A stretch of 64,000 nucleotides of DNA from an uncultured Eggerthella sp. (GTDB lineage Bacteria > Actinomycetota > Coriobacteriia > Coriobacteriales > Eggerthellaceae), in assembly GCA_900542525.1 (NCBI GenBank), contig UQNZ01000003.1, positions 48,440 to 112,439 on the forward strand, read 5' to 3'. Positions 38,278 through 62,369 of this stretch are shown here, piece by piece (the first letter of the stretch is position 1; the number at the start of each line of letters is the position of its first letter). Made by a program: the position numbers and the translations under genes. The notes beneath the pieces are model-generated. The model was not told where the DNA came from. It was given only the letters and a program-made list of their open reading frames with translations, and did not search any database.

Positions 38278-38379
38278 GCGCGCTTTTTGAGCTTTTGTGA
38301 AGCTACCCTATTTTTTGCTTGTGCGACTTCGGTCAATAGCCTAAAATAGCAAAGCGCACAAACGCATAACATACGAAAC

Positions 38380-38455
38380 GGATCGTTAGCTTAGTTGGTA
38401 GAGCAGGGGACTCTTAATCCCAAGGTCCGGGGTTCGAGTCCCCGACGATCCACCA
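38380..38455 (+). tRNA. tRNA-Lys (CTT)
   Basis: Acceptor ggatcgt/acgatcc, anticodon loop ctCTTaa, T-loop GGTTCGAGTCC. Confidence 0.8.
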
Positions 38456-38596: not shown

Positions 38597-39790
38597 CTAG
38601 CTGCGCCAATATTCGAGCGCTCCATCCGTAGCCTCACGACGCTCAGCACGCGCACTATCATGAAGGTACTCAAGATATGAGAGCGCGATCGCAAGTCTGC
38701 GAGAACGCAGAATAGGAGGCTGTTCCTCCCAACTTGGCAAATAGGAATAGTACTTCTGTGCAAGTTCGTTCACTGTAAGCGGAGCGTCTTCGAGCATGCT
38801 CTGCATCTTGCTGATCGGACGATCGTAACTTGCAATGATCTTTTCAAGAAACGCATTGATCTCGCCTGCGCCGATGAGTGGCTCCCGATGGCACATGAAG
38901 ACACACTCAAGGTCGAGCGTTTTCAAGTAAGCAAGATTAGCCAAGAACTGTTGAAGCTGACGAATATCAGGTGTGAACGACATAAGTCCCGGAGCGGTAT
39001 CGAGCACGTGATCACCTGCAAAGAGAATGCGTTTCTCACGCTCGATCAAACATACATGAGTTGCTGTATGACCAGGAGTTTCGATCGCTTCAAAGCAGTA
39101 ATCCCCCACTTCGATAACATCGCCATTCTTCACGAAAGTGATGCGATCATTATAGCCTTCGAAACGACCATTGCGCTCGAGCAATCGCTCGATATAGAAG
39201 AAGATCTCATCATCTCCGGCGCGCTCAATACCGCATTGAATAAGAAAATTACGTGTCTGACCTTCATCGTAGGAAGGAAGCTCGCGCATATACACCCGTT
39301 GCGCGCCCTTATCAAGGCAATATTCGACATTGCCATCGTGATCATCATGAGAGTGTGTGATGAACACCGCTGCATCTTCCCAAGCAGTGCCTGTGCACGC
39401 AAGCGCTTCATCGAGAAATTCGACACCGCACATATCGTACATGCCCACATCGACAAAGAGCGCCTTATTGCCAGGATCGATAACGGCAAATTCATCGATA
39501 CGATCTGCAAAATAAAAATTATCGATCGCATAGCTCGAATGATAGATTCCCGGAAGATCTTCATGCAAAAGAAAATTTGTCACATGACTTACTTCAGGAT
39601 AGACAACTAGATGCTTCTTTTCTGAACCATCCGCTGCTTGATAGGTAAAATTGCGCGCTTCAGCAGAATCGACTTTTCCGAGTGAATCAAGTGCATTAAA
39701 ACCACTTTTGGTCGTGTTATCGATATGCAAACGCTCTTGCGCTTTACGCACGGATGTTTCTACGGATCGTTCATTGCTCATCGTAGACAT
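38597..39790 (-). CDS. MBL-fold metallo-hydrolase
   Basis: THSHDDH metal-binding motif and a downstream His/Asp set. Confidence 0.7.
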   Translation of the reverse strand: MSTMSNERSVETSVRKAQERLHIDNTTKSGFNALDSLGKVDSAEARNFTYQAADGSEKKHLVVYPEVSHVTNFLLHEDLPGIYHSSYAIDNFYFADRIDEFAVIDPGNKALFVDVGMYDMCGVEFLDEALACTGTAWEDAAVFITHSHDDHDGNVEYCLDKGAQRVYMRELPSYDEGQTRNFLIQCGIERAGDDEIFFYIERLLERNGRFEGYNDRITFVKNGDVIEVGDYCFEAIETPGHTATHVCLIEREKRILFAGDHVLDTAPGLMSFTPDIRQLQQFLANLAYLKTLDLECVFMCHREPLIGAGEINAFLEKIIASYDRPISKMQSMLEDAPLTVNELAQKYYSYLPSWEEQPPILRSRRLAIALSYLEYLHDSARAERREATDGALEYWRS

Positions 39791-47922: not shown

Positions 47923-48017
47923 TCAGCATTATGGGCAGTGTCAATAAAATGAAGTTTACCATGTGAAACATACATAACAAAAAAAAGAGCCTGCTCAAGG
48001 CAGGCAGGGAAATTCTA

Positions 48018-48094
48018 TGGCGCGCCCAGTAGGATTCGAACCTACGACCTTTGGATTAGAAGTCCACTGCTCTATCCAGCTGAGCTATGGGCGC
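48018..48094 (-). tRNA. tRNA-Arg (TCT)
   Basis: Acceptor gcgccca/tgggcgc, anticodon loop ctTCTaa, T-loop GGTTCGAATCC, encoded CCA. Confidence 0.75.
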
Positions 48095-48229
48095 AAAACG
48101 TGATTATTATAGCCCAGGAATTCAACCACGTCTGCTGCAAGCCATACAAGCGCGAAAAAACAACGCGAAACAGGAAAAGGCTCCCCGAAGAGAGCCTTTT
48201 CCTGCTGTATTGAAGTAAAGGAAAGTGTC

Positions 48230-49276
48230 TTAATCAATTTCGACGAGCTTGCCGGTCTCCGCTGATTCAAGGATCGCATTGATAACCTTGAGCGTTGCAA
48301 CGCCGTCTTCACCAGTACAGCGTGGCACCGTTTCTCGTCCGAGACAGAGGTCTGCAAAGTGCTCGATCTCCGCCGTCATTGGGTCGTTCTTCTCGACATC
48401 GAAGTGCTCAGTAACGAGCTTCTCTGCCCAGCCGTAATGATCGTCATCGACATAGTGGTAGAAATCCATGTTCGGGAAACCGAATGAACCCTGCGTGCCG
48501 AAGAAGCGCAGGCTATTCTCACCCGGACACCACTGGAAGAAATGGTTTTCCTCAGCAGCCAAGTCATAGTTCCACGGACCTGGCGTACCATCAGAAATGA
48601 AGTAGGTTGCCGTAACACCATTGTCGAATTCGATGACGATAGAAGCAGAATCTTCAACCTCATTACCGCGAATCGTATTGCGTGCAGCAGCATAAACGCG
48701 CGTGACCTTCATGCCGGTGGTGTAGTTCAAATCATCGATATCGTGAATCGCGTTGATGAGGAACGGGCCACCACCCTTTTTCGTGTGCCATTCCACGTCC
48801 CAATAGTTATAGGGTTTCGCGATAGCGTACGTTGCTTGAATGCCAACCAGATCGCCCAACTTGCCCGAAGCGATGAAATCGCGCAAGAACAGATACTTTG
48901 TGGAAGAACGGCGATGATGACCGATGAGCAACGTGGCATCTGCCTCCTTGCACATCGCAATGATCTCATTTGCCTCTTCAACCGTGTTGGCAATGGGCTT
49001 TTCAAGCAAGATATTACGAACACCTGCATCGAGTGTATTACGGGTCGCGCTCACATGCAAGCCATTCGGCAGCGCGATCGCTACTGCATCGAGCGGTACT
49101 TCATTGAGCAGCTCGGTGTAATCCGCATAAAGCGGTACCTCAAGTTCCGCAGCAACATCTTCAGCTTGCTGACCGAAACCAGCAACCGCCACCAAATCGT
49201 AATCGGGATTCTTCTTCGCATCACGTGCGATCTTCGAACCTTGATTCAATCCGAATACGGCAAATCTAATAGCCAT
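48230..49276 (-). CDS. Gfo/Idh/MocA family NAD(P)-dependent oxidoreductase, copy 1
   Basis: N-terminal Rossmann (IRFAVFGLNQGSKIA), EKP motif and the C-terminal alpha/beta domain. Confidence 0.8.
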   Translation of the reverse strand: MAIRFAVFGLNQGSKIARDAKKNPDYDLVAVAGFGQQAEDVAAELEVPLYADYTELLNEVPLDAVAIALPNGLHVSATRNTLDAGVRNILLEKPIANTVEEANEIIAMCKEADATLLIGHHRRSSTKYLFLRDFIASGKLGDLVGIQATYAIAKPYNYWDVEWHTKKGGGPFLINAIHDIDDLNYTTGMKVTRVYAAARNTIRGNEVEDSASIVIEFDNGVTATYFISDGTPGPWNYDLAAEENHFFQWCPGENSLRFFGTQGSFGFPNMDFYHYVDDDHYGWAEKLVTEHFDVEKNDPMTAEIEHFADLCLGRETVPRCTGEDGVATLKVINAILESAETGKLVEID

Positions 49277-49366
49277 GTTATTACCCCTCCATTTTTCCTT
49301 GCATGTGCAAATCTCTTCTGGCGCTTACCCTCGAACACCATGCGCAAGATTAAGAATAGCGCGTTT

Positions 49367-50302
49367 TTAATCGAAGAACTTATCTTGGACAAGTTTTGTA
49401 GGCATTTCCTTACCTACCCAAATATCTTCAGCAATAGCAGCCTGCCACAAAAGCATACCAAGACCATTGATGGTCTTGAGCCCTTTAGCTTCAGCATCCT
49501 CGAGCAACTTCGTCTTGCGTGGCACATAGATGACATCTGCAACAACAAGACCATCCACCAGGAATTCAGCAGGAACTACGCTTTGTCCTTCCAAATCACC
49601 CATGCCAACATTGGTTGCATTGATAAGGAGCACAGATTCAGCGATAGAGGCTTTCATCGCTTCTTTATCATCTATATCGATAAGACGCATAGCGCACCCC
49701 GTCTTATCAGCAATACCTGCGATATGCTCGGCAGCAGCATCAAAAGAATCATTCTTTCGCTTATAGACATCGATCGCAGCAACGCCATCGAGAGCCGCCT
49801 GCGTATAGATCGCCATAGCCGCGCCACCTGCGCCCATTATGGTGATCTTCTTGCCAACAACATCAACACCGTTCTCTTTGACATTACGCATGAAGCCCGC
49901 ACCATCGGTATTATGGCCAATAGCCTTACCGTCTTTGATGGCGACGGTATTAATGGCACCCATCAGCTCAGCAGCTGGAGAGACTTCGTCCAAATAGCGT
50001 GAAACAACTCTCTTATGCGGCATCGTGACGTTATACCCAAGGAAGCCAAGCTCCTTCATGCCGTTCGCAGCGGCTTCAAGTTGTTCGGGTTCGACATTAT
50101 AAGCAAGATAGACGCAATCGACACCGAGCTGCTCAAAGGAAAACGTATGCATAGCTGGTGAAAGCGAGTGCTCCACCGGTGAGCCGATCAGGCAGATTGT
50201 TTTCGTGCAACCAGAGATATTAGGCATAGCAGATCCTTTACTTCTATTGAGATATTGCAATAATGCAGTTCCACAATATCCAATATTCTCTACAAATAGC
50301 AA
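49367..50302 (-). CDS. Shikimate/quinate 5-dehydrogenase-like (AroE family), copy 1
   Basis: AroE substrate-domain motifs (LIGSPVEHSLSPAMH, NVTMPHK) and an NAD(P) Rossmann (GAGGAA). The start is probably at about 50227. Confidence 0.75.
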   Translation of the reverse strand: MLFVENIGYCGTALLQYLNRSKGSAMPNISGCTKTICLIGSPVEHSLSPAMHTFSFEQLGVDCVYLAYNVEPEQLEAAANGMKELGFLGYNVTMPHKRVVSRYLDEVSPAAELMGAINTVAIKDGKAIGHNTDGAGFMRNVKENGVDVVGKKITIMGAGGAAMAIYTQAALDGVAAIDVYKRKNDSFDAAAEHIAGIADKTGCAMRLIDIDDKEAMKASIAESVLLINATNVGMGDLEGQSVVPAEFLVDGLVVADVIYVPRKTKLLEDAEAKGLKTINGLGMLLWQAAIAEDIWVGKEMPTKLVQDKFFD

Positions 50303-50490
50303 GTTGCTTACCTACTATTTTTACCATGAAATAGAGATATGCAATAGAAGTGTTTGCCTTAATGTTGCTTTGTCTTAAGAAAACAATATTCAATTCAAAG
50401 AGTGGCTGAGGCATACCATATGATGCTTTTTACCACGGCGAAAGGCAAATGCCATTGTTCTTTTTTCTAAGTTGCTTTCTTTCCCCCCCA

Positions 50491-51408
50491 TTATTTCTGC
50501 AAAGGACGTACTGTTGCGGTTGGAAAATGGTAGTTTTTCATATAGGTAACAAAATCTGATACAACTCTTGGCTGTGTAATAGATTTATTAGAGATCAGAT
50601 AAACTTTATGAAACTCTCTAGGAGCATCTCGAAGAGGCAGATAAACAACATCGTCAAAAGCCTTGACTAAAAACGAATAGCACAATAATGCAACATCATT
50701 GGTGTCTGAGTTTACTAGAGAAGACAAAGTGATTTCATCGTTATAAGAGTATTCGACATCCAATTCGCATTCTGCCTGCTGAAGCAATTCTTTCATTTCA
50801 TCGTATACAGGTGATTCATCATGGTATGAAATGATATGAAACTCAGCTAAGTCAGCAAGCGATACAACCGATTTTTTCGCAAGAGGATGCTTCTTGTTAA
50901 CCGCAACTGCTAACTCTTGCGCCCAGCAATAGGTACAGTTGTATTTATTCGAAGTTTGAGGCTTTCCTGCGAAGATGACATCCAATTTTCCCGACTCTAG
51001 TCCCTCAAATAAAGAAGGGGTGAAACCTTGAGTTATGTTGATCGTCAGACCAGCTCCACATTCATCTTGAAAGGACTGTATCGCCTGCGACCAATCTTTA
51101 CTCTGCATCGCGTAAAGCGTGCCGAGGTTCAAGGTTCCATTTATCTTCCCTTCATATTCTTCAACAGCTTGAACTCCTTGCTCGATGATTCGCAATCCTC
51201 GAGAAACGTAATCATAGAATTCCTCTCCGCACGGTGTTAGCTCTATCTTATTGTTCGCACGATAAAACAAACGTGTATTTAATTCCTTTTCGAGCGAAGA
51301 AATAGCAGCAGAAAGCGTTGGTTGCGAAACGTAAAGCTCTGAGGCAGCTTTCGTGAAATGCTTCACTTCTGCAAGCTTTTTGAAATATGTTAGATGAGAA
51401 AAATTCAC
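50491..51408 (-). CDS. LysR family transcriptional regulator (AT-rich, likely horizontally acquired)
   Basis: LysR HTH (HFTKAASELYVSQPTLSAAIS) plus a substrate-binding domain. By eye about 40% GC versus above 55% in flanking core genes. Confidence 0.8.
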   Translation of the reverse strand: MNFSHLTYFKKLAEVKHFTKAASELYVSQPTLSAAISSLEKELNTRLFYRANNKIELTPCGEEFYDYVSRGLRIIEQGVQAVEEYEGKINGTLNLGTLYAMQSKDWSQAIQSFQDECGAGLTINITQGFTPSLFEGLESGKLDVIFAGKPQTSNKYNCTYCWAQELAVAVNKKHPLAKKSVVSLADLAEFHIISYHDESPVYDEMKELLQQAECELDVEYSYNDEITLSSLVNSDTNDVALLCYSFLVKAFDDVVYLPLRDAPREFHKVYLISNKSITQPRVVSDFVTYMKNYHFPTATVRPLQK

Positions 51409-51466
51409 TCACTGAGCTTTCTACTTAACATTGATCCGAAAAAGATCTGCCAAATAAAATCATAGC

Positions 51467-52549
51467 TTATTTGATATCAATAACTTTACATGTCTCTGCT
51501 GATTCAAGAATGGCGTTGATAACTTTGAGCGTTGCAATGCCGTCTTCACCAGTGCAACGAGGTTTAGTCTCGCGCCCCGTACACAGATCGGCAAAATGCA
51601 CGAGCTCAGCTGTCATGGGATCATTTCTTTCGATCTCGTAATGTTCGACGATCAGCTCTTCTCCCCAACCATAATGATCATCATCAGCGTAATGATAGAA
51701 GTCCATGTTCGGGAATCCGAGTGAGCCTTTTGTGCCGAAGAAACGAAGACTATTCTCGCCTGGACACCACTTGAAGAAATGATTCTCTTCTGCAGCCAAA
51801 TCGTAGTTCCAAGGACCAGGAGTGCCATCGGAAATGAAATAGGTAGCCGTGATACCGTTTTCGAATTCAATAACGATTGAAGCCGAATCTTCGATCTCGT
51901 TACCACGGATCGCGTTACGCGCTGCCGCATAGACACGGTTAGCCTTCATGCCAGTGGTGTAATTTAGGTCATCGATATCGTGAATCGCGTTGATGAGGAA
52001 CGGGCCACCACCTTTCTTGGTATGCCACTCAACATCATAATAAGCATACGGTTTCGCGATCGCATAAGAAGCCTGCACGCCAACCAGGTCACCAAGCTTG
52101 CCCGATTCGATAAAATCACGCAAGAAAAGATACTTTGACGAGGAACGGCGATGATGACCAATGAGCAGCATCGCACCTGCTTCGTTGCACATATCGATGA
52201 TCTCTTGTGCTTCTTCGACCGTATTAGCAATAGGCTTCTCTAGTAGGATGTTCTTAACCCCCGCATCCAAACATGCACGTGTTGAGCTTACATGAAGCCC
52301 ATTTGGAAGTGCGATCGCAACTGCATCAAGCGGGATCTCTTTTAAAAGATCATTAAAATCTGCATAGAGCGGCACCTCAAGCTCTGCTGAAACGTCTTCA
52401 GCTTGCTGACCAAAACCTGCAACTGCTACCAGGTCGAACTCTTCACTTGCCTTTGCATCTCGAGCTATCTTCGACCCTTGATTGAGCCCAAAAACTGCTA
52501 GCCTGATTGCCATGATAAATCCCTTTCTTTGTACCCCTTGGCAAATCAA
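51467..52549 (-). CDS. Gfo/Idh/MocA family NAD(P)-dependent oxidoreductase, copy 2
   Basis: About 85% amino-acid identity to the 48230-49276 product by eye, with the same motifs. The start is probably MAIRLAVFG at about 52513. Confidence 0.8.
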   Translation of the reverse strand: MICQGVQRKGFIMAIRLAVFGLNQGSKIARDAKASEEFDLVAVAGFGQQAEDVSAELEVPLYADFNDLLKEIPLDAVAIALPNGLHVSSTRACLDAGVKNILLEKPIANTVEEAQEIIDMCNEAGAMLLIGHHRRSSSKYLFLRDFIESGKLGDLVGVQASYAIAKPYAYYDVEWHTKKGGGPFLINAIHDIDDLNYTTGMKANRVYAAARNAIRGNEIEDSASIVIEFENGITATYFISDGTPGPWNYDLAAEENHFFKWCPGENSLRFFGTKGSLGFPNMDFYHYADDDHYGWGEELIVEHYEIERNDPMTAELVHFADLCTGRETKPRCTGEDGIATLKVINAILESAETCKVIDIK

Positions 52550-52616
52550 TGCAAGGGAAGATTCTGAACAGATAAGCCATCGAGGTCCTCTTTGAAGGAA
52601 CCTGTGACCGCAACCC

Positions 52617-53474
52617 TTAGTTGAAGAATTTCTCTTCTATGAGTTTCGTGGGCATCTCCTTACCTACCCAAATGTCTTCAGCGATCGCAGCTTGCCAGAG
52701 AAGCATACCTAGACCCGAAATTGCTTTAAGCCCCTTTGCTTCGGCATCCTGCAAAAGCTTGGTCTTGCGTGGCTCGTAAACCGTATCAGCTACTGCGATA
52801 CCATCGACAAGATAGTCTGGCAAAATAACACTCTGATCAGCTAAATCTCCCATGCCCACGCGTGTTGCATTAACGAATAATGCTGATTCAGCAATAGACT
52901 TCTTGAGTGATTCTTTGTCTTCAAGATCGATAAGGCGCATTCTGCAACCTGTCTTTTCGGCAACTTCCGCCACGCGTTCAGCAGTCACATCAAAGAACTT
53001 ATCCTTGATGTTGTAGATATCGATCGCCTCAACACCATCAAGTGCCGCTTGAGTATATATAGCCGAGCCAGCACCACCTGCGCCGACAATCGTAATCTTC
53101 TTTCCGATAACATCGACTCCGTTTTCTTTGAGATTTCTCATGAAGCCAGCCCCATCCGTATTATGACCAATGGCTTTTCCTTGCTTGATAGCAACCGTAT
53201 TTACAGCGCCCATCAATTCTGCTGCATCGGATAATTCGTCAAGATATTTCGGAATGAATGTTTTATGAGGCATAGTAACGTTATACCCTGCAAACCCCAT
53301 CTTCTTCATGCCTACAGCAGCAGACTCTAGGTCTTGTGGTTCAATATCGTATGCAAGATAAACACAATCTACGCCCAACTCATTGAACGATTGAGTATGC
53401 ATAGCTGGTGATAAAGAATGCTCAACTGGGGAACCGATTAATGCGATAGTTTGTGTATGACCCGATACTTGCAT
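52617..53474 (-). CDS. Shikimate/quinate 5-dehydrogenase-like (AroE family), copy 2
   Basis: High identity to the 49367-50302 product (IALIGSPVEHSLSPAMH, NVTMPHK). Confidence 0.75.
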   Translation of the reverse strand: MQVSGHTQTIALIGSPVEHSLSPAMHTQSFNELGVDCVYLAYDIEPQDLESAAVGMKKMGFAGYNVTMPHKTFIPKYLDELSDAAELMGAVNTVAIKQGKAIGHNTDGAGFMRNLKENGVDVIGKKITIVGAGGAGSAIYTQAALDGVEAIDIYNIKDKFFDVTAERVAEVAEKTGCRMRLIDLEDKESLKKSIAESALFVNATRVGMGDLADQSVILPDYLVDGIAVADTVYEPRKTKLLQDAEAKGLKAISGLGMLLWQAAIAEDIWVGKEMPTKLIEEKFFN

Positions 53475-53684
53475 TGCTCTTCCTTTCAGACGCGTATCAA
53501 ATAGAATACGTTTGGCTCTGTAGCTCTATTCTTTGCGGTTGCTCGGAAAACATCCAATAGTATTAATTACCAATCGGGATAGCATTATTAGAAATACCTA
53601 TATCTCCCTGTCAAAAGCGAATATTCCGCTAATAGAATAGAGAAAAATACATCGCTATTTTTGTTATAATGTTTAACGTCGCGT

Positions 53685-53761
53685 CGGGATGTGGCGCAGT
53701 TTGGTAGCGCGCCTGCTTTGGGAGCAGGATGTCGCAGGTTCGAATCCTGTCATCCCGACCA
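53685..53761 (+). tRNA. tRNA-Pro (TGG)
   Basis: Acceptor cgggatg/catcccg, anticodon loop ttTGGga, T-loop GGTTCGAATCC, encoded CCA. Confidence 0.85.
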
Positions 53762-53769
53762 TTTTTTTT

Positions 53770-53843
53770 GCGGGTGTAGTTCAATGGTAGAACTCCAGCC
53801 TTCCAAGCTGGTCACGCGGGTTCGATTCCCGTCACCCGCTCCA
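53770..53843 (+). tRNA. tRNA-Gly (TCC)
   Basis: Acceptor gcgggtg/cacccgc, anticodon loop ctTCCaa, T-loop GGTTCGATTCC, encoded CCA. Confidence 0.85.
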
Positions 53844-53855
53844 GGAAAACTTTTA

Positions 53856-53884
53856 AGCCAAGGAAACTACCTTGGCTTTTTTAT
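53856..53884 (+). terminator. Rho-independent terminator after tRNA-Gly
   Basis: Hairpin agccaagg-aaacta-ccttggct followed by a TTTTTTATT tract. Confidence 0.7.
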
Positions 53885-53931
53885 TCCAACAAGGTAGAGG
53901 GGATCGAACCAACGTCGTTCATCACCTATGA

Positions 53932-54271
53932 CAAGCAGCACGCCTATGGGGCACTTGTAATTACTCGCTTTCGCTGTTCGCTTGCCTATTCAGGCAAGCT
54001 CATGCGCTTCGCTCCTTCGGACAGCCTATTTATATTGAAGTAAGCGGACTCAGAGTAATTTAAGTACCCTATAGGCTCAGCTGCTTGCTTAGTCGGAAAC
54101 ATCTAGCTCGATCAGCGAAGAGGGTGAGGCAACAAGGTGACTCTTCGCCGGCTAAATTCATTAGTAATAAAACCCGAGAAAAGCAGCGACGCATGAGCGA
54201 ATCAGCGCAAGCTGATTCGCGAACAGGGAAGCGGGTCACCCTCGTGTCTCGCGCTCGGCGCTGATCGAGCC
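53932..54271. ncRNA. Unclassified structured-RNA-like repeat element, copy B
   Basis: About 90% identical to the reverse complement of 7801-8131. Contains GNRA- and UUCG-type hairpins. No ORF is conserved between the copies. Confidence 0.55.
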
Positions 54272-54316
54272 GTGGAAGCTGCACAGTGTCGAGAAAGTAA
54301 TTTGTTATTAAACAAA

Positions 54317-55654
54317 TTACTTTGTCAAAGCAAAATAACGTTTATAGAAAACTGCGATACAGATACCGCAAACGATCAATGAGAGCGCTTCAGCAACGGG
54401 CACCGCACACCATACGCCCGTTATGCCCCACAACGTCGAAAACGAGATCAGACAGATGAGCACGAAAACAAAACTACGCAGCGTTGAGATGAGCGCAGAA
54501 ATACCACCGTTCGAAAGCGCGGTGAACATATTCGAAGTCATAAGACTGAATCCCGCGAACAAAAAGCCTGTTGCGAAGATACGCAAACCCCCACTTGCCA
54601 TAGCGAACAATTCGGTCCCTGGCGCAACGAAGATCCCTACCAAGAATTCATTACCGAACATGCAGGCAGCATAGAGAACGACCGACGCAGCCGCAATGAA
54701 AAAATAAGCATCACGCACCACCCGACGCAGCCGCATGCGATTCTGCGCCCCGAAGTTATAGCTGATGATCGGCGCGATACCGCTTGCGAAACCATATAAC
54801 CCTGCCGTAAAGAGAAACTCAAGATAAAGAATGACCGTGATAGCAGCAACACCTGCCTCCCCTGCAAGACGAAGCATGATGAGGTTATAGGAAAGCGTAA
54901 TGATCATCGCGGCAAGATTCGAGATCATTTCCGATACCCCATTGGTGCAGCTCTTCAAGATCATGCGCGGGCGATTCATGATGCGTCCAAAATGAAGGCT
55001 GTGCTGCTTATTGAAGAAGCAGATGAGTGCGATCACCACAGGAATACAGGTTGCAAGTCCTGTTGCAAGCGCCGCTCCCTTGATCCCCATTCCTACAACC
55101 ACGATAAGAAAATAGTCGCCAACGATATTGAAGATGCCAGAACACAGCGTTGCGATAAGACCGATCTGAGGTTTTCCTGCCGTGATGAAATAGCTTGAGA
55201 ACATGAGTTCGAGCACCCATGGTGCCAAGAATCCAATGATGCAATAGCAGTAATCCTTGCAGTACGGCATCAGTATTGCAGTTGCGCCAAGCGCGCTCAA
55301 GATCGGCTCCATGAAAACGAGGATTGCGATCATGAGAACCAAACCGAGAATCGTGCCGAAGAACACGAGCGTACTCAAGTTATCGAACGCCTGCTGTTCT
55401 TCACCTTCACCGATATTCTTCGCGATAACTGCAGAACCACCAGCGCCGAGCATCACCCCGAAACCCATCACGAGCGAAAAGAGCGGATTGACGATATTGA
55501 GCGCAGAGAGGGCATCGACCGAAACGAACTGCGCAACGAACACCCCGTCGACCATCGTATAGATGGACGTGAAGAGCATCATACATACGGTAGGAAGTGC
55601 GTATTTCAGCAATCCCCAAGCGCCGAAGTTTTGAGCGATCCTATTTTCAACCAT
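54317..55654 (-). CDS. MATE family efflux transporter
   Basis: Twelve predicted transmembrane helices with the MATE duplicated 6-helix organisation. A palindromic terminator lies just downstream (54286-54325). Confidence 0.8.
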   Translation of the reverse strand: MVENRIAQNFGAWGLLKYALPTVCMMLFTSIYTMVDGVFVAQFVSVDALSALNIVNPLFSLVMGFGVMLGAGGSAVIAKNIGEGEEQQAFDNLSTLVFFGTILGLVLMIAILVFMEPILSALGATAILMPYCKDYCYCIIGFLAPWVLELMFSSYFITAGKPQIGLIATLCSGIFNIVGDYFLIVVVGMGIKGAALATGLATCIPVVIALICFFNKQHSLHFGRIMNRPRMILKSCTNGVSEMISNLAAMIITLSYNLIMLRLAGEAGVAAITVILYLEFLFTAGLYGFASGIAPIISYNFGAQNRMRLRRVVRDAYFFIAAASVVLYAACMFGNEFLVGIFVAPGTELFAMASGGLRIFATGFLFAGFSLMTSNMFTALSNGGISALISTLRSFVFVLICLISFSTLWGITGVWCAVPVAEALSLIVCGICIAVFYKRYFALTK

Positions 55655-57287: not shown

Positions 57288-58253
57288 CTAGACACGCGGC
57301 ATTGGTGGCTGCCAAACGATGGTGCGCTTCCCATCGAGCGCACTCAAGCATGCCTCACGTTTGAGCTCTGCGATGCTCATCGCTTCCCATCCGGGGATAA
57401 TGCCTGAGCAATACGCGAGATATCCCAAGATCGCCTCTGCACTTAAGCCCAGCTCTTCGATAAGGTAGCCAAGCGATGCATCCTTGTTGCGCTTGGAGAG
57501 CTTGCGTCCGTTTTCGTCTACGAAGATCGGTACATGACCATAAACAGGTGTGGGCAGACCAAGCAGTTGCTGAAGGTAGATCTGCTTGGGTGTTGATGTG
57601 AGCAAATCAACGCCGCGCACAACCGAATCGATGCCCGAAGCAGCATCGTCGACCACCACCGCAAGCTGATAGGCGAATACCCCATCACTGCGCTTGATGA
57701 TGAAATCCCCTGCTTCATGCACAAGATCGAAACAACTCTTACCCTGAAATGCGTCAGTAAAGCACAGCGGGCTTGGAGCAGCAGCCACATCGAGGCGCAG
57801 CGCATAGCGCTCGGTAGACATGCGCTCAGTACGCACTTCAGGCAAGATATCCTTGCAGGTGTTTTGATAGATGAACTCTTCTCCAACGTGAGGAGCACGC
57901 GCGCTATGCAAGTCAGCACGGGTGCAGAAACAGGGATACACGAGCCCTTGCGCCTCGAGCGCCTCGCATGCACGCAGATAGCGCGCCTGCTGCTCTTCGG
58001 CGCTTTGATAGACGACCGCATCTGTCCATTCGAAACCGAACCACTCAAGATCGCGCATGATCGCATCGATATGCTCCTGCTTGGAACGATCGGGGTCAAG
58101 ATCTTCGATACGCAGCACCATCTCATCGGCAACGAGCGCCGCGATAAGAGAAGCGAAGATATTGCCAATATGGAATCGCCCTGAAGGGCTTGGTGCAAAA
58201 CGACCGCGAAGGAGCGGTCGTTTCATCTCGTCAGTTTCTACGATCGGTAACAT
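57288..58253 (-). CDS. gluQ: tRNA glutamyl-Q(34) synthetase (truncated GluRS paralog)
   Basis: Class I HIGH motif (SGRFHIGN) and a GluRS catalytic domain. The anticodon-binding domain is absent. Confidence 0.75.
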   Translation of the reverse strand: MLPIVETDEMKRPLLRGRFAPSPSGRFHIGNIFASLIAALVADEMVLRIEDLDPDRSKQEHIDAIMRDLEWFGFEWTDAVVYQSAEEQQARYLRACEALEAQGLVYPCFCTRADLHSARAPHVGEEFIYQNTCKDILPEVRTERMSTERYALRLDVAAAPSPLCFTDAFQGKSCFDLVHEAGDFIIKRSDGVFAYQLAVVVDDAASGIDSVVRGVDLLTSTPKQIYLQQLLGLPTPVYGHVPIFVDENGRKLSKRNKDASLGYLIEELGLSAEAILGYLAYCSGIIPGWEAMSIAELKREACLSALDGKRTIVWQPPMPRV

Positions 58254-59550
58254 GTTTCGTCTTGCCGAAACTACGCTCGATTCCGCCTGGCTCGATGAGC
58301 TTCACATCGGACGAAACGAGCATCGTGTCCTTGAGCTTGGTCTGAATCTGCTTTCGAAAGCGATCCATCTCTTCGAAGGAATCGGTGAATGATTCTGGCA
58401 GCAGCTCAACCATGATGACCATGTGATCGAGTCCGCTATCGTTATCGACTTCGATACGATAGTGTGGGCTCACACCTTCGATGCCAGCCAAGATGTCTTC
58501 TACCTGCGAAGGGAACACATTGGTTCCGCGGATAATGAGCATATCGTCAGTGCGGGTACGCACCTTCTTCATGCGCGCGTGGGTACGTCCGCAGGCGCAC
58601 GGCTCGGTGATCACATAGCTCAGGTCGTGCGTGCGGTAACGTAATACCGGGAATGCCTGTTTATCGAGCGGCGTAAGCACCAGTTCACCTGGCACGCCTT
58701 CAGGAAGTGGCTCGCCGGTCTTCGGATCGACGATCTCCCAGAAGAAATGATCCTCAGCGATATGCTGCATATCGCGGCAGGCAAGGCATTCGCCCGAAAC
58801 ACCTGGACCCATCACCTCGGTGAGGCCGTAATTATCGGTGCAGATGATATGCATGCGACGCTCGATCTCTTCCTTGAGCGCTGGCGGACAAGGTTCACCG
58901 CCGAAGAGCCCGATGCGCAAGCTCGAGTTCTCCCAATCGAAACCATGCTTCTCGCCATATTCGCACATGTGCATCGCATAGGAAGGAGTGGCGATGAGTA
59001 CGGTGGTCTGGTAGTCGTTGATCATCATGAGGTGACGTTCGGTATTGCCTGAGCCTGCCGGGATGACCATACAACCCAGATGCTCAAGGCCATAATGCAG
59101 ACCAAAGCCACCGGTGAACATGCCATAACCGAACGCCATCTGAACGCGATCCGAAGGCACCACGCCTGCCATCTGGGCCAAGCGGGCAATGCAGTCACGC
59201 CAGACATCAAGATCGTGATCGTTGTACCCTACCACGATCGGCTTTCCCGTGGTGCCCGATGAAGCATGCAGACGCACCACATCATCGAGCGGAATAGCGA
59301 AGAGACCGAACGGATAGGTATCGCGCAGCACCGACTTATCCGTGAAGGGAAGCTTGCGGATATCTTCGAGCGTTTGGATATCGCCCGGCACCACTCCAAG
59401 TTCTCCCATCTTCTCGCGATACCAAGGCACGCGCTCATAAGTCCACGCAACCTGATCCTTGAGCTTGGCAAGCTGCAACGCACGGATCTCTTCACGAGAC
59501 ATCGTTTCGATCTCGGGCTGGAACATCGGGGTGATCACTGAATTACTCAT
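58231..59550 (-). CDS. paaK: Phenylacetate--CoA ligase family protein (PaaK / F390 synthetase-like)
   Basis: AMP-binding motif SSGTTGKP and the PaaK-type C-terminal domain. Confidence 0.8.
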   Translation of the reverse strand: MSNSVITPMFQPEIETMSREEIRALQLAKLKDQVAWTYERVPWYREKMGELGVVPGDIQTLEDIRKLPFTDKSVLRDTYPFGLFAIPLDDVVRLHASSGTTGKPIVVGYNDHDLDVWRDCIARLAQMAGVVPSDRVQMAFGYGMFTGGFGLHYGLEHLGCMVIPAGSGNTERHLMMINDYQTTVLIATPSYAMHMCEYGEKHGFDWENSSLRIGLFGGEPCPPALKEEIERRMHIICTDNYGLTEVMGPGVSGECLACRDMQHIAEDHFFWEIVDPKTGEPLPEGVPGELVLTPLDKQAFPVLRYRTHDLSYVITEPCACGRTHARMKKVRTRTDDMLIIRGTNVFPSQVEDILAGIEGVSPHYRIEVDNDSGLDHMVIMVELLPESFTDSFEEMDRFRKQIQTKLKDTMLVSSDVKLIEPGGIERSFGKTKHVTDRRN

Positions 59551-59627
59551 GGGTTCTCGATTCTGATATTGAATAGAATGGACGTAAGAAGATAGCGGAT
59601 ACTATTTGCACACAGGTAACAAGCGCA

Positions 59628-60041
59628 TTACGCTGAGAAATCAACCTGCGAAACAAGTTCGACCGGCTGTTCAGCCAATGCAGCTTCAGCGCGCGCAACG
59701 TCTTCGACGCCGACCGCGATATAGGTTGAGATGAGCGAATAAGAATACTTCACGTTCATATCTTGCTGGGCGATCACATCGAACACGCGCACCAGTTCAC
59801 CTGGTTCATCGACAAGCTTCAAGCAGAGCACATCAGCCTGCTTGACCGCCATACCTTTTGCTTCGAGCACTTCAAAAGCGCGCTGCGGCTTATCGACCAC
59901 GAACCGCGCGATGCCATAATCGCCCGTATCGCTTAACGCATAGCCTTTCACGCTGATATCGTTTTCCACGAACACTTCGAGCACGCGCTTCAGGTGACCG
60001 ACCTTGCTCTCGATGAAAACGCTTAACTGGGCAACAGCCAT
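59628..60041 (-). CDS. Tandem ACT-domain protein
   Basis: Two ACT-like beta-alpha-beta-beta-alpha-beta units in 137 aa. Typical companion of paaK and iorAB. Confidence 0.65.
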   Translation of the reverse strand: MAVAQLSVFIESKVGHLKRVLEVFVENDISVKGYALSDTGDYGIARFVVDKPQRAFEVLEAKGMAVKQADVLCLKLVDEPGELVRVFDVIAQQDMNVKYSYSLISTYIAVGVEDVARAEAALAEQPVELVSQVDFSA

Positions 60042-60043
60042 AG

Positions 60044-60778
60044 CTACTCTCCTTGCATATAGTTGGCACCCAGATGGAATGCCTCGAGGTTGATATCGAT
60101 GGTTTTGGGCGGGACATTATCACGAATGACCTCTTCCCAAAGGGAAAAATCGAACGGAAGGCTTACTGCGAGCGCACCGAGCAGCACGACATTCGCACAT
60201 TTCGCCGTTCCTGCGCTGCGCGCCAATTCGCTTGCTGGAATAAGTGTTGCTCCCAATTCATCAAGACGCTCACGCGCACGAACAGGCATCTCAGCCTTGC
60301 CCGTGAGCACGGGAAGCGGCTTGATCTCTTCATCGTCCACAACGAGCACGCCGCCTTCCTTCAGATAAGCCAGGTTGCGGAGTGCTTCTGTGGTCTCGAA
60401 TGACACGATGTTGTCGGCACAACCTTCGTCGCAGACCATCGTGGAAACGTTATCGCCAAAACGCACGACCGTGGTAACCGCGCCACCACGCTGCGCCATA
60501 CCGTGAATCTCAGAAACCTTACAGCACTTCCCTGCCGCGCTCGCAACACGCGCGAGCAACGTTGCTGCAGTGATCGTGCCCTGACCACCAACGCCACAAA
60601 GCAAAATGGTGAATGTTTTATCGCTCATATCGCGCTCCCCTCTACAGACGCTCGATCGCATCGAACGCGCAGTACTGGGCGCACTGCGAGCATCCATTGC
60701 ACATATCAGTATCGATCGACGAAAAGCCTGTTTCGCGATCGGTTGAAATTGCGGGACATCCCAGCGTGACACACACAC
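60044..60778 (-). CDS. iorB: Indolepyruvate ferredoxin oxidoreductase subunit beta
   Basis: CGVGGQG nucleotide-binding motif. The true start is probably MSDKTFTILL at about 60630, shorter than the ORF-track start. Confidence 0.8.
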   Translation of the reverse strand: MCVSRWDVPQFQPIAKQAFRRSILICAMDARSAPSTARSMRSSVCRGERDMSDKTFTILLCGVGGQGTITAATLLARVASAAGKCCKVSEIHGMAQRGGAVTTVVRFGDNVSTMVCDEGCADNIVSFETTEALRNLAYLKEGGVLVVDDEEIKPLPVLTGKAEMPVRARERLDELGATLIPASELARSAGTAKCANVVLLGALAVSLPFDFSLWEEVIRDNVPPKTIDINLEAFHLGANYMQGE

Positions 60779-62369
60779 CGCAGCCCGTGCAGTTTCCGTT
60801 CACATAGTATGGCTTGTCCTTCGTTTTTGAAAGCAATACACAAGGTCCGCGGAACACAATCACGTCGAGCTCATCGCGCCCGAGCGCATCTTTGAGCGCC
60901 GCGCGTACCGCATCACGATCGAACGCATCGACCACCTGCACGTGATCGACACCGATTGCTTCTAGGATCACCGGCAGATTGAGCTCGTTGCTTTCGCGGT
61001 TTTGCAGGGTGACGCCATTGAATGGATTGCCTTGTTGGCCGGTCATGGCAGTCGTGCGATTATCCAGGATGCAGATCGTGCCTGCACCCTTGTTATAAAC
61101 CGTATTGATAAGGCTCGAAAGACCTGAATGCGCAAACGTGGAATCGCCGATCACGCCCACGATCGGACGATGATCGCTTCCCGCCATCGCGAGTTCAAAG
61201 CCATGCGCCATCGAAACAGAGGCGCCCATGTCAAGCGTGGTGTCCATAGCTGAAAGCGGTGGCAGAGCGCCAAGCGTATAGCAACCGATATCACCCGTGA
61301 CAATGGCCTTATTGCGTGCCAGCTCGCGAAAGACGATGCGGTGCGGACAACCCGCGCAAAGAGCGGGCGGGCGATTGGGGACATCGTTGGGAGTATCAAG
61401 ATGCGCAGGGGTTTCTTTCCCGAACGCACGCAGAATATCTTCAGGATGAATCTCACCATCAGCAGGTAATGGAGTAACGAATTCATCCAGCGCAATACCG
61501 CATGAACGCACCGCGTCGGAAAGATAGGTCGAAGCCTCTTCGACCACATACACCTTATCCACGCTCTCAGCGAACTGTGCAAGTGCACCCGCAGGCAGCG
61601 GCCAGGTTACCCCCAGCTTGAAGATGTTCACATCACCCAAGGCTTCTTTCACATGCTCATAGACTGCACCAGCACAGATGATACCGATGCTCGCATCGCC
61701 CTTCTCCACACGATTGAACGGACACGTTTCCACCCAATCTTTCAGCGTTTCAGTGCGCTTAGCCACAACTTTACGACGCGGCTTCGCGAATGCAGGCATC
61801 ATGACCCATTTGGTAGGATCAGTTTCGTAAGGCTTCTTTTCAACCTCAGTACGATCCCCTACATCAACAGGTGTTTTCGTGTGAGAGATGCGTACAGTGG
61901 AGCGCATCATGAAGGGAACGTCGAACTGCTCGGAAAGATCGTAGGCGCTGCGTGCGAAATCGAGTGCTTCCTGCGAATCGGCAGGCTCAAGAATGGGCAC
62001 GAGCGAAGCCATGGCATAGTAGCGACTGTCTTGCTCGTTCTGTGAAGAGAACATGCCCGGATCGTCGGCAGCGAGCAAGAGCACACCGCCGTTAACACCA
62101 GTATAAGAAGCGGTGAAAAGCGGATCAGCGCATACATTCACGCCCACGTGCTTCATCGTAACAAGCACGCGTGCTCCCGCCGCAGAAGCGCCCATCGCAA
62201 CCTCAAGCGCGACTTTCTCGTTCGGACACCATTCCGCGTAAACACCAGGAAGCGTTGCGAAGGTTTCCATGGTCTCGGTAGAAGGTGTTCCCGGATAGGC
62301 CGTGCCAATATGACATCCTGCCTCCCATGCACCACGCGCGATCGCTTCATTACCTGATAAAAATTCCAT
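60642..62369 (-). CDS. iorA: Indolepyruvate ferredoxin oxidoreductase subunit alpha
   Basis: TPP-binding domain plus two C-terminal 4Fe-4S ferredoxin motifs (CTGCGVC, CNGCSQCAQYC). Confidence 0.85.
   Translation of the reverse strand: MEFLSGNEAIARGAWEAGCHIGTAYPGTPSTETMETFATLPGVYAEWCPNEKVALEVAMGASAAGARVLVTMKHVGVNVCADPLFTASYTGVNGGVLLLAADDPGMFSSQNEQDSRYYAMASLVPILEPADSQEALDFARSAYDLSEQFDVPFMMRSTVRISHTKTPVDVGDRTEVEKKPYETDPTKWVMMPAFAKPRRKVVAKRTETLKDWVETCPFNRVEKGDASIGIICAGAVYEHVKEALGDVNIFKLGVTWPLPAGALAQFAESVDKVYVVEEASTYLSDAVRSCGIALDEFVTPLPADGEIHPEDILRAFGKETPAHLDTPNDVPNRPPALCAGCPHRIVFRELARNKAIVTGDIGCYTLGALPPLSAMDTTLDMGASVSMAHGFELAMAGSDHRPIVGVIGDSTFAHSGLSSLINTVYNKGAGTICILDNRTTAMTGQQGNPFNGVTLQNRESNELNLPVILEAIGVDHVQVVDAFDRDAVRAALKDALGRDELDVIVFRGPCVLLSKTKDKPYYVNGNCTGCGVCVTLGCPAISTDRETGFSSIDTDMCNGCSQCAQYCAFDAIERL

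What the first reader, a model, noticed from the sequence alone, without database searches (positions are those of the whole stretch)
48095..53684. tRNA-bounded segment with a tandemly duplicated two-gene cassette (Gfo/Idh/MocA oxidoreductase plus shikimate-dehydrogenase-like gene)
Between tRNA-Arg(TCT) and tRNA-Pro/tRNA-Gly lie two copies of the same gene pair, at 48230-50302 and 51467-53474, with a LysR gene between them. The encoded proteins are roughly 85% identical by eye between copies. A pairing of an inositol-dehydrogenase-like enzyme with an AroE-like shikimate/quinate dehydrogenase is not part of the standard shikimate pathway. It suggests a dehydrogenase route acting on a cyclitol-like or hydroaromatic substrate (quinate, shikimate, inositol-type compounds) under LysR control. 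Duplication with divergence implies two substrate specificities or recent amplification. The tRNA flanks on both sides are typical of acquired islands.
Basis: partly seen in the sequence, partly recalled or inferred. Interest (0 to 1): 0.6.

Follow-up and report, generated by a model that had tools for sequence, protein, structure and literature searches.

The report
Paired dehydrogenase operons for hydroaromatic acids
A gut Eggerthellaceae bacterium carries two old, diverged copies of a two-gene operon (a quinate/shikimate-type dehydrogenase plus an uncharacterised Gfo/Idh/MocA dehydrogenase) with a QuiR-like LysR regulator, most likely for handling plant-derived quinate/shikimate-type acids, not a recently acquired island.

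Summary
tRNA-Arg(TCT) and tRNA-Pro/tRNA-Gly bracket five minus-strand genes in the order SDH_B, GFO_B, LysR, SDH_A, GFO_A.

They are old paralogs. dS between them is saturated, and each has its own single-copy ortholog at the same tRNA-bracketed site in another species (bootstrap 100%). All five genes are under strong purifying selection (omega 0.003-0.09).

- **SDH:** YdiB/Listeria Lmo0490 class, not E. coli-type AroE. All ten shikimate-contact and catalytic residues are conserved.
- **LysR:** its effector domain is closest to the shikimate sensor QuiR.
- **GFO:** a small, unnamed, largely Eggerthellaceae subfamily that lacks the canonical catalytic Asp.

The module is widespread in Eggerthellaceae. 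Elsewhere it often sits with aromatic-acid-type MFS transporters, a VOC protein, CoA-transferase, crotonases and an acyl-CoA dehydrogenase.

I found no integrase and no att repeats, and the flanks are housekeeping genes. The tRNA/copA neighbourhood is conserved across genera, so the "acquired island" reading is not supported. Cassette B plus LysR does have atypically low GC3.

The most likely function is LysR-inducible redox conversion of quinate/shikimate-type hydroaromatic acids. The GFO step is unknown. This is a new variant of a known kind, of moderate interest.

The parts
47989..48005 (-). Terminator-like hairpin plus T-run just downstream of tRNA-Arg. It is the likely end of the GFO_A/tRNA-Arg transcription unit(s).
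   Evidence: Consensus scan only.
48018..48094 (-). tRNA-Arg(TCT), the boundary on the copA side.
   Evidence: ARAGORN and Rfam at 71.8 bits. The same tRNA flanks the module in L002, L004-L010, L012, L014 and L037.
48230..49276 (-). GFO_A: Gfo/Idh/MocA-family dehydrogenase, 348 aa, cassette A.
   Evidence: Pfam. NCBIfam scores are below every equivalog cut-off. Omega is 0.003-0.007 against L002, L004 and L006. AF2 model pLDDT is 83.
49367..50227 (-). SDH_A: YdiB/Lmo0490-class shikimate/quinate dehydrogenase homolog, 286 aa, cassette A. Its cofactor loop reads KRKN, with Asn where YdiB has Asp.
   Evidence: Pfam, NCBIfam and conserved contact residues. It is orthologous to the single copy in Anaerotardibacter muris at 100% bootstrap.
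50228..50490 (-). Intergenic region upstream of SDH_A. It is the presumed promoter/operator of cassette A and holds 3 copies of the hexamer TCTATT/AATAGA.
   Evidence: Sequence and hexamer count. The hexamer was chosen post hoc, so this is a lead only.
50491..51408 (-). LysR-type regulator, 305 aa. It is co-directional with cassette B and starts 58 nt downstream of GFO_B.
   Evidence: Pfam HTH_1 plus LysR_substrate. The effector domain's best solved relative is QuiR/Lmo0488 (5TED), E = 5e-9. A control LysR in the same window gives no such hit.
51467..52513 (-). GFO_B: Gfo/Idh/MocA-family dehydrogenase, 348 aa, cassette B.
   Evidence: Pfam. It is 84% identical to GFO_A and 92.5% identical to the single copy in L008. 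Omega is about 0.03.
52617..53474 (-). SDH_B: YdiB/Lmo0490-class shikimate/quinate dehydrogenase homolog, 285 aa, cassette B. Its cofactor loop reads YNIKD, keeping the Asp found in YdiB.
   Evidence: Pfam. The best solved relative is 3TNL at 298 bits. Contact residues are conserved.
53475..53684 (-). Intergenic region upstream of SDH_B. It holds 4 copies of TCTATT/AATAGA and a block (TAATACTATTGGA) conserved as far as L008. On the + strand it holds a conserved TATAAT just before tRNA-Pro.
53685..53843 (+). tRNA-Pro(TGG) and tRNA-Gly(TCC), the boundary on the MATE side. A terminator-like hairpin follows at 53855-53878.
   Evidence: The same tRNA pair flanks the module in L006-L010.

Best explanation
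The segment holds two ancient paralogous copies of an Eggerthellaceae-typical operon. Each copy encodes an NAD(P)-dependent quinate/shikimate-type dehydrogenase (YdiB/Lmo0490 class) followed by a dedicated Gfo/Idh/MocA dehydrogenase. A single QuiR-like LysR regulator is encoded at the end of the upstream copy.

**Proposed working**
1. The LysR protein senses a hydroaromatic acid such as shikimate, quinate or a derivative, and activates both SDH-GFO operons (inferred).
2. The SDH enzyme interconverts the C3 alcohol and ketone of quinate/3-dehydroquinate and/or shikimate/3-dehydroshikimate. This is inferred from complete conservation of the catalytic and substrate-contact residues.
3. The GFO enzyme carries out a second alcohol/ketone step on the same ring or a derived ring. 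One option is oxidation of 3-dehydroshikimate towards an aromatic product. Another is oxidation or reduction of a dihydro-shikimate-type cyclitol acid. This step is speculative.

Copies A and B probably differ in cofactor use and/or exact substrate. SDH_B keeps the Asp seen in the NAD-using YdiB type. SDH_A has Asn plus extra basic residues.

**Origin.** The module is inherited at a conserved chromosomal site, not carried on a mobile island. The two-copy state comes from one of two routes:
- an old tandem duplication followed by reciprocal losses in relatives, or
- insertion of a sister lineage's version beside the resident one.
For: **Shown**
- Gene content and order.
- SDH class. The best NCBIfam models are PRK00258.2-1 and PRK12548. 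YdiB PRK12749 scores 229-239 bits. Solved relatives score 3TNL 298 bits, YdiB 218, E. coli AroE 87, 4K28 83, 1NPY 72 and 3PWZ 63. In the NJ tree the family sits beside YdiB and 3TNL, with AroE as outgroup.
- All ten AroE shikimate-contact and catalytic residues (S14, S16, N59, T61, K65, N86, T101, D102, Y215, Q244) are conserved in SDH_A, SDH_B and at least 46 of 48 family members.
- The LysR effector domain's top solved relative is QuiR (5TED), E = 5e-9. The next hit is OxyR at 1.6e-5. QuiR is the shikimate-dependent activator of the Listeria qui operons. A control LysR from the same window does not hit 5TED.
- Functional coupling. Of 90 GFO-subfamily genes in 75 loci, 40 have an adjacent co-directional SDH in either order (22 SDH-then-GFO, 18 GFO-then-SDH). 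67 have a LysR within 1.6 kb.
- Sister loci add aromatic-acid/H+ symporter-type MFS transporters, a VOC protein, CoA-transferase III, crotonases and an acyl-CoA dehydrogenase.
- All five genes are under purifying selection, omega 0.003-0.09.
- Paralogy is old. dS is saturated. Bootstrap support is 100% for A with A. muris, 100% for B with L008, and 0% for A with B exclusively.
- The site is conserved. The tRNA bracket holds one cassette in L005, L008 and L009 and two in L002, L004, L006 and L007.

**Context**
- Eggerthella lenta respires shikimate (bioRxiv 10.1101/2022.12.26.521950), so such acids are relevant substrates for this family.
Against: - No enzyme assay exists, and I found no paper on this module.
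- The classical partners are absent from the cassette and the whole window: dehydroquinate dehydratase, dehydroshikimate dehydratase and a transporter.
- The SDHs fall below the curated equivalog cut-offs for YdiB and for the named shikimate dehydrogenase models. They pass only the generic TIGR00507 aroE domain model.
- The GFO has no informative relative. It is about 22% identical to every solved structure, and the top fold hit leads only narrowly.
- SDH-family enzymes can act on non-shikimate substrates, for example 5-ketofructose reductase 7COK.
- The LysR-QuiR similarity is modest at 39 bits.
- The LysR gene is co-directional with the operon, not divergent as is typical.
Confidence: 0.55

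Rival explanations
1. Biosynthetic paralogs. One or both SDH genes are simply the organism's shikimate dehydrogenase for aromatic amino-acid and menaquinone synthesis, and the GFO gene is an unrelated neighbour.
For: - Both SDHs pass the generic aroE domain model TIGR00507 (211.6 and 214.4 bits against a cut-off of 200.2).
- They keep all catalytic residues.
- Menaquinone-type genes, which need chorismate, lie nearby: a UbiA/MenA-like gene and a 4HBT thioesterase.
- I could not scan the rest of the genome for a separate aroE.
Against: - The SDHs are YdiB/Lmo0490-class, not AroE-class.
- They are linked to a QuiR-like LysR.
- SDH-GFO adjacency is kept in both gene orders across many genomes.
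- Family members are multicopy within genomes and copy number at this site varies.
- In sister loci they sit with aromatic-acid-type transporters and CoA-pathway genes.
- No other aro genes lie in the 64 kb window.
Confidence: 0.12
2. Different substrate class. The pair acts on a non-shikimate cyclitol, keto-sugar or other alicyclic hydroxy-acid. Examples are inositol-type epimerisation by an oxidise/reduce pair, or keto-sugar reduction as done by the SDH-family 5-ketofructose reductase.
For: - GFO relatives include inositol dehydrogenases, 1,5-anhydrofructose reductase and glycoside 3-dehydrogenases.
- An SDH-family 5-ketofructose reductase exists (7COK).
- The nearest non-Coriobacteriia GFO relative (47% identity, Bacillaceae) sits in an alicyclic/acyl-CoA catabolic operon with no SDH.
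- More than half of the GFO subfamily genes lack an adjacent SDH.
Against: - The residues that hold the shikimate carboxylate and hydroxyls are all retained.
- The associated transporters score best against the aromatic-acid/H+ symporter family, not sugar porters.
- The LysR effector domain is closest to the shikimate sensor QuiR.
Confidence: 0.2
3. Origin rival: a tRNA-targeted acquired genomic island. A weaker form is that only cassette B plus LysR was inserted laterally beside a resident cassette A.
For: - Cassette B and LysR have atypical GC3: LysR z = -5.0, SDH_B -4.2, GFO_B -3.2 and SDH_A -2.6, against 44 window genes.
- The same offset appears in sister species L002 and L006. L008's B-type copy, by contrast, matches its own genome.
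- Content between the tRNAs varies between species.
Against: - There is no integrase, transposase or att-like direct repeat.
- The flanks are housekeeping genes.
- The tRNA bracket with a cassette inside it, beside copA and OTCase, is shared by several species and by Anaerotardibacter.
- Linkage of copA to the module extends to distant Eggerthellaceae.
- A and B with their single-copy orthologs form one clade at 100% bootstrap, so any donor was a close relative.
Confidence: 0.1

Closest known systems
Listeria qui1/qui2 system: QuiR (Lmo0488, PDB 5TED) with the Lmo0490-type quinate/shikimate dehydrogenase (PDB 3TNL)
   Same: - A LysR regulator whose effector domain is the closest solved relative of the window's LysR.
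- An SDH that is the closest solved relative of SDH_B, at 298 bits.
- A LysR-controlled accessory module acting on quinate and shikimate, outside the biosynthetic pathway.
   Different: - As described in the paper read here, Listeria uses dehydroquinate dehydratase and the QuiC2 dehydroshikimate dehydratase to make protocatechuate. Neither is present in the window.
- A related Firmicute locus (Carnobacterium, L078) has LysR, an OYE/FAD reductase, SDH, MFS and type I DHQase, and no GFO.
- Here the constant partner is a Gfo/Idh/MocA dehydrogenase, the module is in tandem duplicate, and the LysR gene is co-directional.
E. coli YdiB (quinate/shikimate dehydrogenase, PDB 1NPD/1O9B)
   Same: - The same architectural class, at 218 bits.
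- The same substrate-contact residues, and the same FNRRD-type cofactor loop in SDH_B.
   Different: - Both SDHs score below the curated YdiB equivalog cut-off (229-239 bits against 349).
- SDH_A replaces the loop Asp with Asn.
- The genomic context differs.
Gfo/Idh/MocA dehydrogenases of known function: cis-4,5-dihydrodiol phthalate dehydrogenase (7X1X/7WZD), 1,5-anhydro-D-fructose reductase (2GLX), inositol dehydrogenases, glycoside 3-dehydrogenases
   Same: - The two-domain fold (TM about 0.78-0.80) and the EKP lysine.
- Like the phthalate dihydrodiol dehydrogenase, it lacks the Asp of the Asp-x-x-x-His motif and has an amide residue next to that position: I-N-A-I-H here against S-Q-A-A-H there.
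   Different: - Only about 22% identity to any of them.
- It fails every NCBIfam equivalog cut-off.
- It has two subfamily-specific loops, 152-171 and 230-253, that carry invariant residues and are modelled with low confidence.
- The substrate is unknown.

Membership tests
Shikimate/quinate dehydrogenase superfamily, YdiB/Lmo0490 class | Shikimate_dh_N substrate domain plus a Rossmann domain and SDH_C | tested here: met
   Pfam PF08501 and PF18317 are above cut-off in both SDH_A and SDH_B.
Shikimate/quinate dehydrogenase superfamily, YdiB/Lmo0490 class | Catalytic Lys/Asp dyad and the shikimate-contact residues. Numbering follows E. coli AroE, whose sequence I recalled from memory. | tested here: met
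   S14, S16, N59, T61, K65, N86, T101, D102, Y215 and Q244 are all conserved in A, B and at least 46 of 48 relatives.
Shikimate/quinate dehydrogenase superfamily, YdiB/Lmo0490 class | Closer to YdiB-class proteins than to AroE, RifI2, SdhL or Ael1 representatives | tested here: met
   Bit scores are 3TNL 298, YdiB 218, E. coli AroE 87, 4K28 83, 1NPY 72 and 3PWZ 63. The NJ tree agrees. Assigning 4K28, 1NPY and 3PWZ to RifI2, SdhL and Ael1 rests on my memory of the literature.
Shikimate/quinate dehydrogenase superfamily, YdiB/Lmo0490 class | Reaches the curated equivalog score for YdiB (NF009390) | tested here: not met
   239.0 and 229.3 bits against a cut-off of 349. Only the generic TIGR00507 model is passed.
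Shikimate/quinate dehydrogenase superfamily, YdiB/Lmo0490 class | Measured oxidation of quinate and/or shikimate | not testable with these tools
   Needs an enzyme assay.
Gfo/Idh/MocA oxidoreductases | N-terminal Rossmann domain and C-terminal alpha/beta domain | tested here: met
   PF01408, PF22725 and PF02894 are found in both copies. The AF2 model matches family structures with TM 0.78-0.80.
Gfo/Idh/MocA oxidoreductases | EKP motif lysine together with the Asp-x-x-x-His catalytic pair | tested here: inconclusive
   K93 (EKP) and H178 are present and invariant. The Asp position is I174, followed by an invariant N175. The chemistry may differ from the canonical triad.
Gfo/Idh/MocA oxidoreductases | Membership of a named functional subfamily such as IolG, UDP-GlcNAc 3-dehydrogenase or glycoside 3-dehydrogenases | tested here: not met
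   The best scores are 142 bits against a cut-off of 450, and 123 against 355.
LysR-type regulators, QuiR-like | HTH_1 plus LysR_substrate domains | tested here: met
LysR-type regulators, QuiR-like | Effector domain specifically related to QuiR | tested here: met
   5TED is the top hit, E = 5e-9, and the next hit is at 1.6e-5. A control LysR in the window gives no hit. The similarity is modest at 39 bits.
LysR-type regulators, QuiR-like | Binds shikimate and activates the adjacent operons | not testable with these tools
   Only a post hoc shared hexamer (TCTATT) in both upstream regions was found.
Classical quinate/shikimate catabolic cluster (qui/qsu type) | Dehydroquinate dehydratase and dehydroshikimate dehydratase encoded alongside the dehydrogenase | tested here: not met
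   Pfam on every major ORF of the window, and gene lists for the public contig, show neither. Neither was among the recurrent neighbour clusters of the 75 loci that I annotated.
tRNA-associated integrative genomic island | Integrase or recombinase gene, and direct repeats derived from the tRNA 3' end | tested here: not met
   No such gene was found. No att-like repeat was found.
tRNA-associated integrative genomic island | Absent from the same site in close relatives | tested here: not met
   Every relative that has this tRNA bracket holds at least one cassette inside it: L002 and L004-L010.
tRNA-associated integrative genomic island | Atypical base composition | tested here: met
   GC3 z-scores run from -3.2 to -5.0 for cassette B plus LysR. 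SDH_A is at -2.6 and GFO_A at -0.7.

The most novel reading that the evidence does not exclude
The SDH-GFO pair is the core of a so far undescribed anaerobic gut route for dietary quinate and shikimate, for example from chlorogenic acid.

- The GFO enzyme would be an aromatising or ring-modifying dehydrogenase acting on 3-dehydroshikimate or 3-dehydroquinate, giving gallate- or protocatechuate-type products. Alternatively it acts on dihydroshikimate-type acids.
- In sister genomes the pair would be extended by an aromatic-acid transporter, a VOC protein, CoA-transferase, crotonases and an acyl-CoA dehydrogenase into a CoA-dependent pathway towards cyclohexanecarboxylate- or benzoate-type products.

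This would assign genes to the conversion of quinic acid by gut microbes that, as far as I recall from the older literature, has long been observed. I did not check that point here.
Probability: 0.15. Interest if true: 0.75.

Novelty: new variant of a known kind. Interest (0 to 1): 0.4.

Why it matters
Eggerthellaceae are asaccharolytic gut bacteria known for transforming plant phenolics and drugs. E. lenta can respire shikimate.

This work defines a conserved, strongly constrained, LysR-controlled dehydrogenase pair that is found in dozens of species-level genomes and has no assigned function. It is a concrete, cloneable candidate for how these bacteria handle quinate and shikimate from coffee, fruit and vegetables.

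It also flags a Gfo/Idh/MocA subfamily with an altered catalytic motif that no database names.

The locus is a clean example of old paralogs kept in tandem, with reciprocal single-copy states in relatives. That is useful for studying subfunctionalisation, such as a cofactor switch in the SDH loop.

Tried and rejected
**Searches that found nothing**
- E. coli genomes: no match, so the window is not enterobacterial.
- Homologs in the window of the MFS, CoA-transferase, VOC and crotonase partners seen in sister loci: none.
- Rfam over the whole window: only tRNAs, with no riboswitch or other RNA in the intergenic regions.
- Promoter and terminator scans: counts no higher than in shuffled sequence, so they are not informative.
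- att-like repeats: none. The only repeat shared by the two boundary tRNAs is the common T-arm.
- Literature on this gene pair in Eggerthellaceae, on quinate with Eggerthellaceae, on GFO with shikimate dehydrogenase, and on dihydroshikimate in Lactobacillus: nothing relevant.
- The supplement of the E. lenta respiration paper holds no SDH or GFO entries.
- The primary QuiR paper, whose DOI I recalled from memory, is not in the library.

**Weak or inconclusive results**
- Footprinting of the two upstream regions is inconclusive. Only close species align, and one conserved block extends to L008.
- The fold search for GFO does not discriminate between functions. The top 50 hits are all at 17-24% identity with similar E-values.

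**Technical failures**
- One window protein could not be looked up by exact sequence.

**Rejected readings**
- Recent amplification, pseudogenised duplicates, and a mobile island.

Full report
**Observation**

ARAGORN finds tRNA-Arg(tct) at 48018-48094(-), tRNA-Pro(tgg) at 53685-53761(+) and tRNA-Gly(tcc) at 53770-53843(+). Rfam confirms all three.

Five minus-strand genes lie between them. In transcription order they are:
- SDH_B, 52617-53474
- GFO_B, 51467-52513
- LysR, 50491-51408
- SDH_A, 49367-50227
- GFO_A, 48230-49276

Pfam assigns Shikimate_dh_N plus SDH_C, the three Gfo/Idh/MocA domains, and HTH_1 plus LysR_substrate. Gene calls on an identical public contig agree.

The GFO copies are 84% identical and the SDH copies 74%. 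DNA identity is 72% over 1952 nt. The quoted 85% fits only the GFO pair.

**Organism and surroundings**

The window is identical or nearly so to contigs of uncultured gut Eggerthellaceae labelled Eggerthella sp. CAG:298, UMGS26 and similar. It does not match E. coli.

Every other sizeable ORF in the 64 kb is a housekeeping gene. Examples are HrcA, LepA, MetG, acetate kinase, ArgS, OTCase, a copA-type ATPase, glycolysis genes, UvrC, WhiA, IorAB and a MenA-like prenyltransferase. There are no other aro genes, no dehydroquinase, and no integrase or transposase.

**The SDH proteins**

They score best against NCBIfam PRK00258.2-1 and PRK12548, then YdiB. All these scores are below the equivalog cut-offs. 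Only the generic aroE domain model is passed.

Among solved structures the order is:
- Listeria 3TNL, 298 bits
- E. coli and Salmonella YdiB, 215-218 bits
- archaeal and Gram-positive AroE, 176-184 bits
- E. coli AroE, 87 bits
- 4K28, 1NPY and 3PWZ, 63-83 bits

An NJ tree places the whole Eggerthellaceae family next to YdiB and 3TNL, away from E. coli AroE.

I aligned the proteins to E. coli AroE, whose sequence I recalled from memory. All ten catalytic and shikimate-contact residues are conserved in both copies and in at least 46 of 48 relatives.

The dinucleotide-discriminating loop differs between the copies. SDH_B reads YNIKD, like YdiB (FNRRD) and Lmo0490 (FNRKD). SDH_A and the Anaerotardibacter copy read KRKN and RRNN. 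I take this as a possible cofactor shift. That is an inference.

**The regulator**

The effector-binding domain alone has QuiR (Lmo0488, 5TED) as its best solved relative, E = 5e-9. The next hit is OxyR at 1.6e-5. A second LysR in the window (23556-24524) does not hit 5TED at all.

QuiR is the shikimate-dependent activator of the Listeria qui1 and qui2 operons (bioRxiv 10.1101/2025.04.08.647683).

Both SDH upstream regions are the only 250-nt stretches of the window with three or more copies of TCTATT/AATAGA. They hold 7 of the 21 occurrences in the window. I chose the motif by eye, so this is only a lead.

**The GFO proteins**

They are bona fide family members in fold (AF2 pLDDT 83, TM about 0.8 to many structures). 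They match no named subfamily.

- The EKP lysine and the motif histidine are invariant. The canonical Asp is replaced by Ile, followed by an invariant Asn.
- The narrowly best fold hit is a cis-dihydrodiol phthalate dehydrogenase, which also lacks that Asp.
- Among 1.84 billion representatives only 185 reach E <= 1e-30.
- Identity falls from 61% to 47% (Bacillaceae) and then to 41% and below. At 38% there is a Collinsella cluster. All carry generic names.
- The Bacillaceae relative lies in an acyl-CoA catabolic operon.

**Comparative genomics**

A scan of species-representative genomes returned 75 loci with 61-100% GFO relatives. The informatively named records are Eggerthellaceae or Coriobacteriia. 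A set of 'cleanbin' bins carry other taxon names that I take to be mislabels.

- Of 90 GFO genes, 40 have an adjacent co-directional SDH, in both orders. 67 have a LysR within 1.6 kb.
- Recurrent further neighbours are an MFS transporter whose best model is the aromatic-acid/H+ symporter family (27 loci), CoA-transferase III (13), a VOC protein (12) and crotonases (8).
- Fuller clusters read (CsoR-CopA)-ECH-MFS-VOC-GFO-SDH-LysR, followed further along by CoA-transferase, a hydrolase, ECH and an acyl-CoA dehydrogenase.
- None of these extra genes is in the window.
- Firmicute relatives of Lmo0490 have LysR, an OYE/FAD reductase, SDH, MFS and type I DHQase, and no GFO.

**Origin of the two copies**

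The tRNA-Gly/Pro to tRNA-Arg bracket next to copA and OTCase is conserved, with different contents:
- two cassettes in L002, L004, L006 and L007
- SDH_B-GFO_B-LysR only in L008, and probably L037
- an A-type pair without LysR in Anaerotardibacter muris (L009)
- an A-type pair only in L005, whose contig is rearranged at tRNA-Pro

In bootstrapped NJ trees of the concatenated proteins, A groups with the A. muris copy (100%) and B with the L008 copy (100%). All four form one clade (100%). A and B never pair exclusively. dS between A and B is saturated.

Against sister species, omega is 0.03-0.09 for four of the genes and 0.003-0.007 for GFO_A. The latter is as constrained as OTCase.

GC3 is atypical for LysR (z = -5.0), SDH_B (-4.2) and GFO_B (-3.2), intermediate for SDH_A (-2.6) and normal for GFO_A. 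The same offset is seen in L002 and L006. In L008 the B-type genes match their host.

Either of two routes fits these data:
- an old tandem duplication followed by reciprocal losses, or
- insertion of a sister lineage's B plus LysR next to a resident A.

A mobile island is not supported, because there are no att repeats, no mobility genes, and the site is conserved.

**Mechanism proposed**

The steps are marked as shown or inferred in the best explanation. A QuiR-like LysR senses a hydroaromatic acid and switches on two SDH-GFO operons. The SDH does the C3 alcohol/ketone step on quinate/dehydroquinate or shikimate/dehydroshikimate. The GFO does a second redox step on the same or a derived ring.

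Shikimate is used as an electron acceptor by E. lenta (bioRxiv 10.1101/2022.12.26.521950).

The GFO step could aromatise 3-dehydroshikimate, or serve a dihydroshikimate branch of the kind I recall from older Lactobacillus work. Both ideas are speculative and untested here.

**Verdict**

This is a real, functional, conserved but uncharacterised module. It is a new variant of LysR-controlled quinate/shikimate dehydrogenase systems, distinguished by its obligatory-looking GFO partner and by tandem old paralogs.

The 'recent amplification' and 'acquired island' ideas are not supported. Interest is moderate at 0.4.

Noticed in passing
window 48542-50002 (+): A 486-aa ORF runs antisense across GFO_A and SDH_A. 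Equivalent antisense ORFs recur in other loci (cluster c5, 16 members). I did not run it against Pfam. It is most likely a by-product of the codon usage of the sense genes rather than a real gene.
   Followed up: partly
window 48230-49276 (GFO_A) against L002, L004 and L006: GFO_A protein is 99-100% identical across species-level genomes whose DNA is only 91-92% identical. Omega is 0.003-0.007, as low as OTCase and about ten times lower than for its SDH_A partner.
   Followed up: yes
window 38597-39790 (-), next to tRNA-His/tRNA-Lys at 38201-38455: A 397-aa metallo-beta-lactamase-fold gene has the lowest GC3 of the background genes (0.452, z = -3.1). It also lies beside a tRNA pair.
   Followed up: no
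window 20213-24524: Next to the tRNA-Cys/Gly/Val cluster lies a group of four genes: an Asp/Glu-racemase-family gene, an octopine/nopaline-dehydrogenase-family gene, an NlpA lipoprotein and a second LysR regulator. This looks like another small regulated accessory module.
   Followed up: no
window 53855-54326: The roughly 470-nt non-coding gap between tRNA-Gly and the MATE gene contains three features: a terminator-like hairpin (53855-53878), a 36-nt imperfect inverted repeat (54106-54141 / 54235-54270) and a 16-nt palindrome at the MATE stop (54291-54326). There is no Rfam match.
   Followed up: no
L010 598-4656 and L014 8592-12553: In lower-GC relatives the SDH-GFO-LysR module is still bracketed by tRNA-Arg and tRNA-Gly(/Pro). 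Its orientation relative to those tRNAs differs from the window, which implies local inversions around a persistently linked tRNA/module group.
   Followed up: partly
L005 8702-9050: In MGYG-HGUT-00616, tRNA-Pro directly abuts SDH_A. There is no tRNA-Gly, no cassette B, no LysR and no MATE gene upstream. This is either a real deletion or rearrangement, or a MAG assembly join.
   Followed up: partly
window 58231-62369: Two phenylacetate-CoA-ligase-like genes with ACT-domain proteins lie beside indolepyruvate/pyruvate ferredoxin oxidoreductase subunits. This suggests aromatic amino-acid fermentation genes next to the menaquinone-type genes.
   Followed up: no
L026-L031, L034, L069, L072 and others: Several 'cleanbin' genome records carry names such as Prevotella, Succinivibrio, Alloprevotella, Oscillibacter and Melainabacteria. 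Their GFO-SDH-LysR loci are near-identical in arrangement and sequence to those of Eggerthellaceae MAGs. The taxon labels of those bins look unreliable.
   Followed up: no
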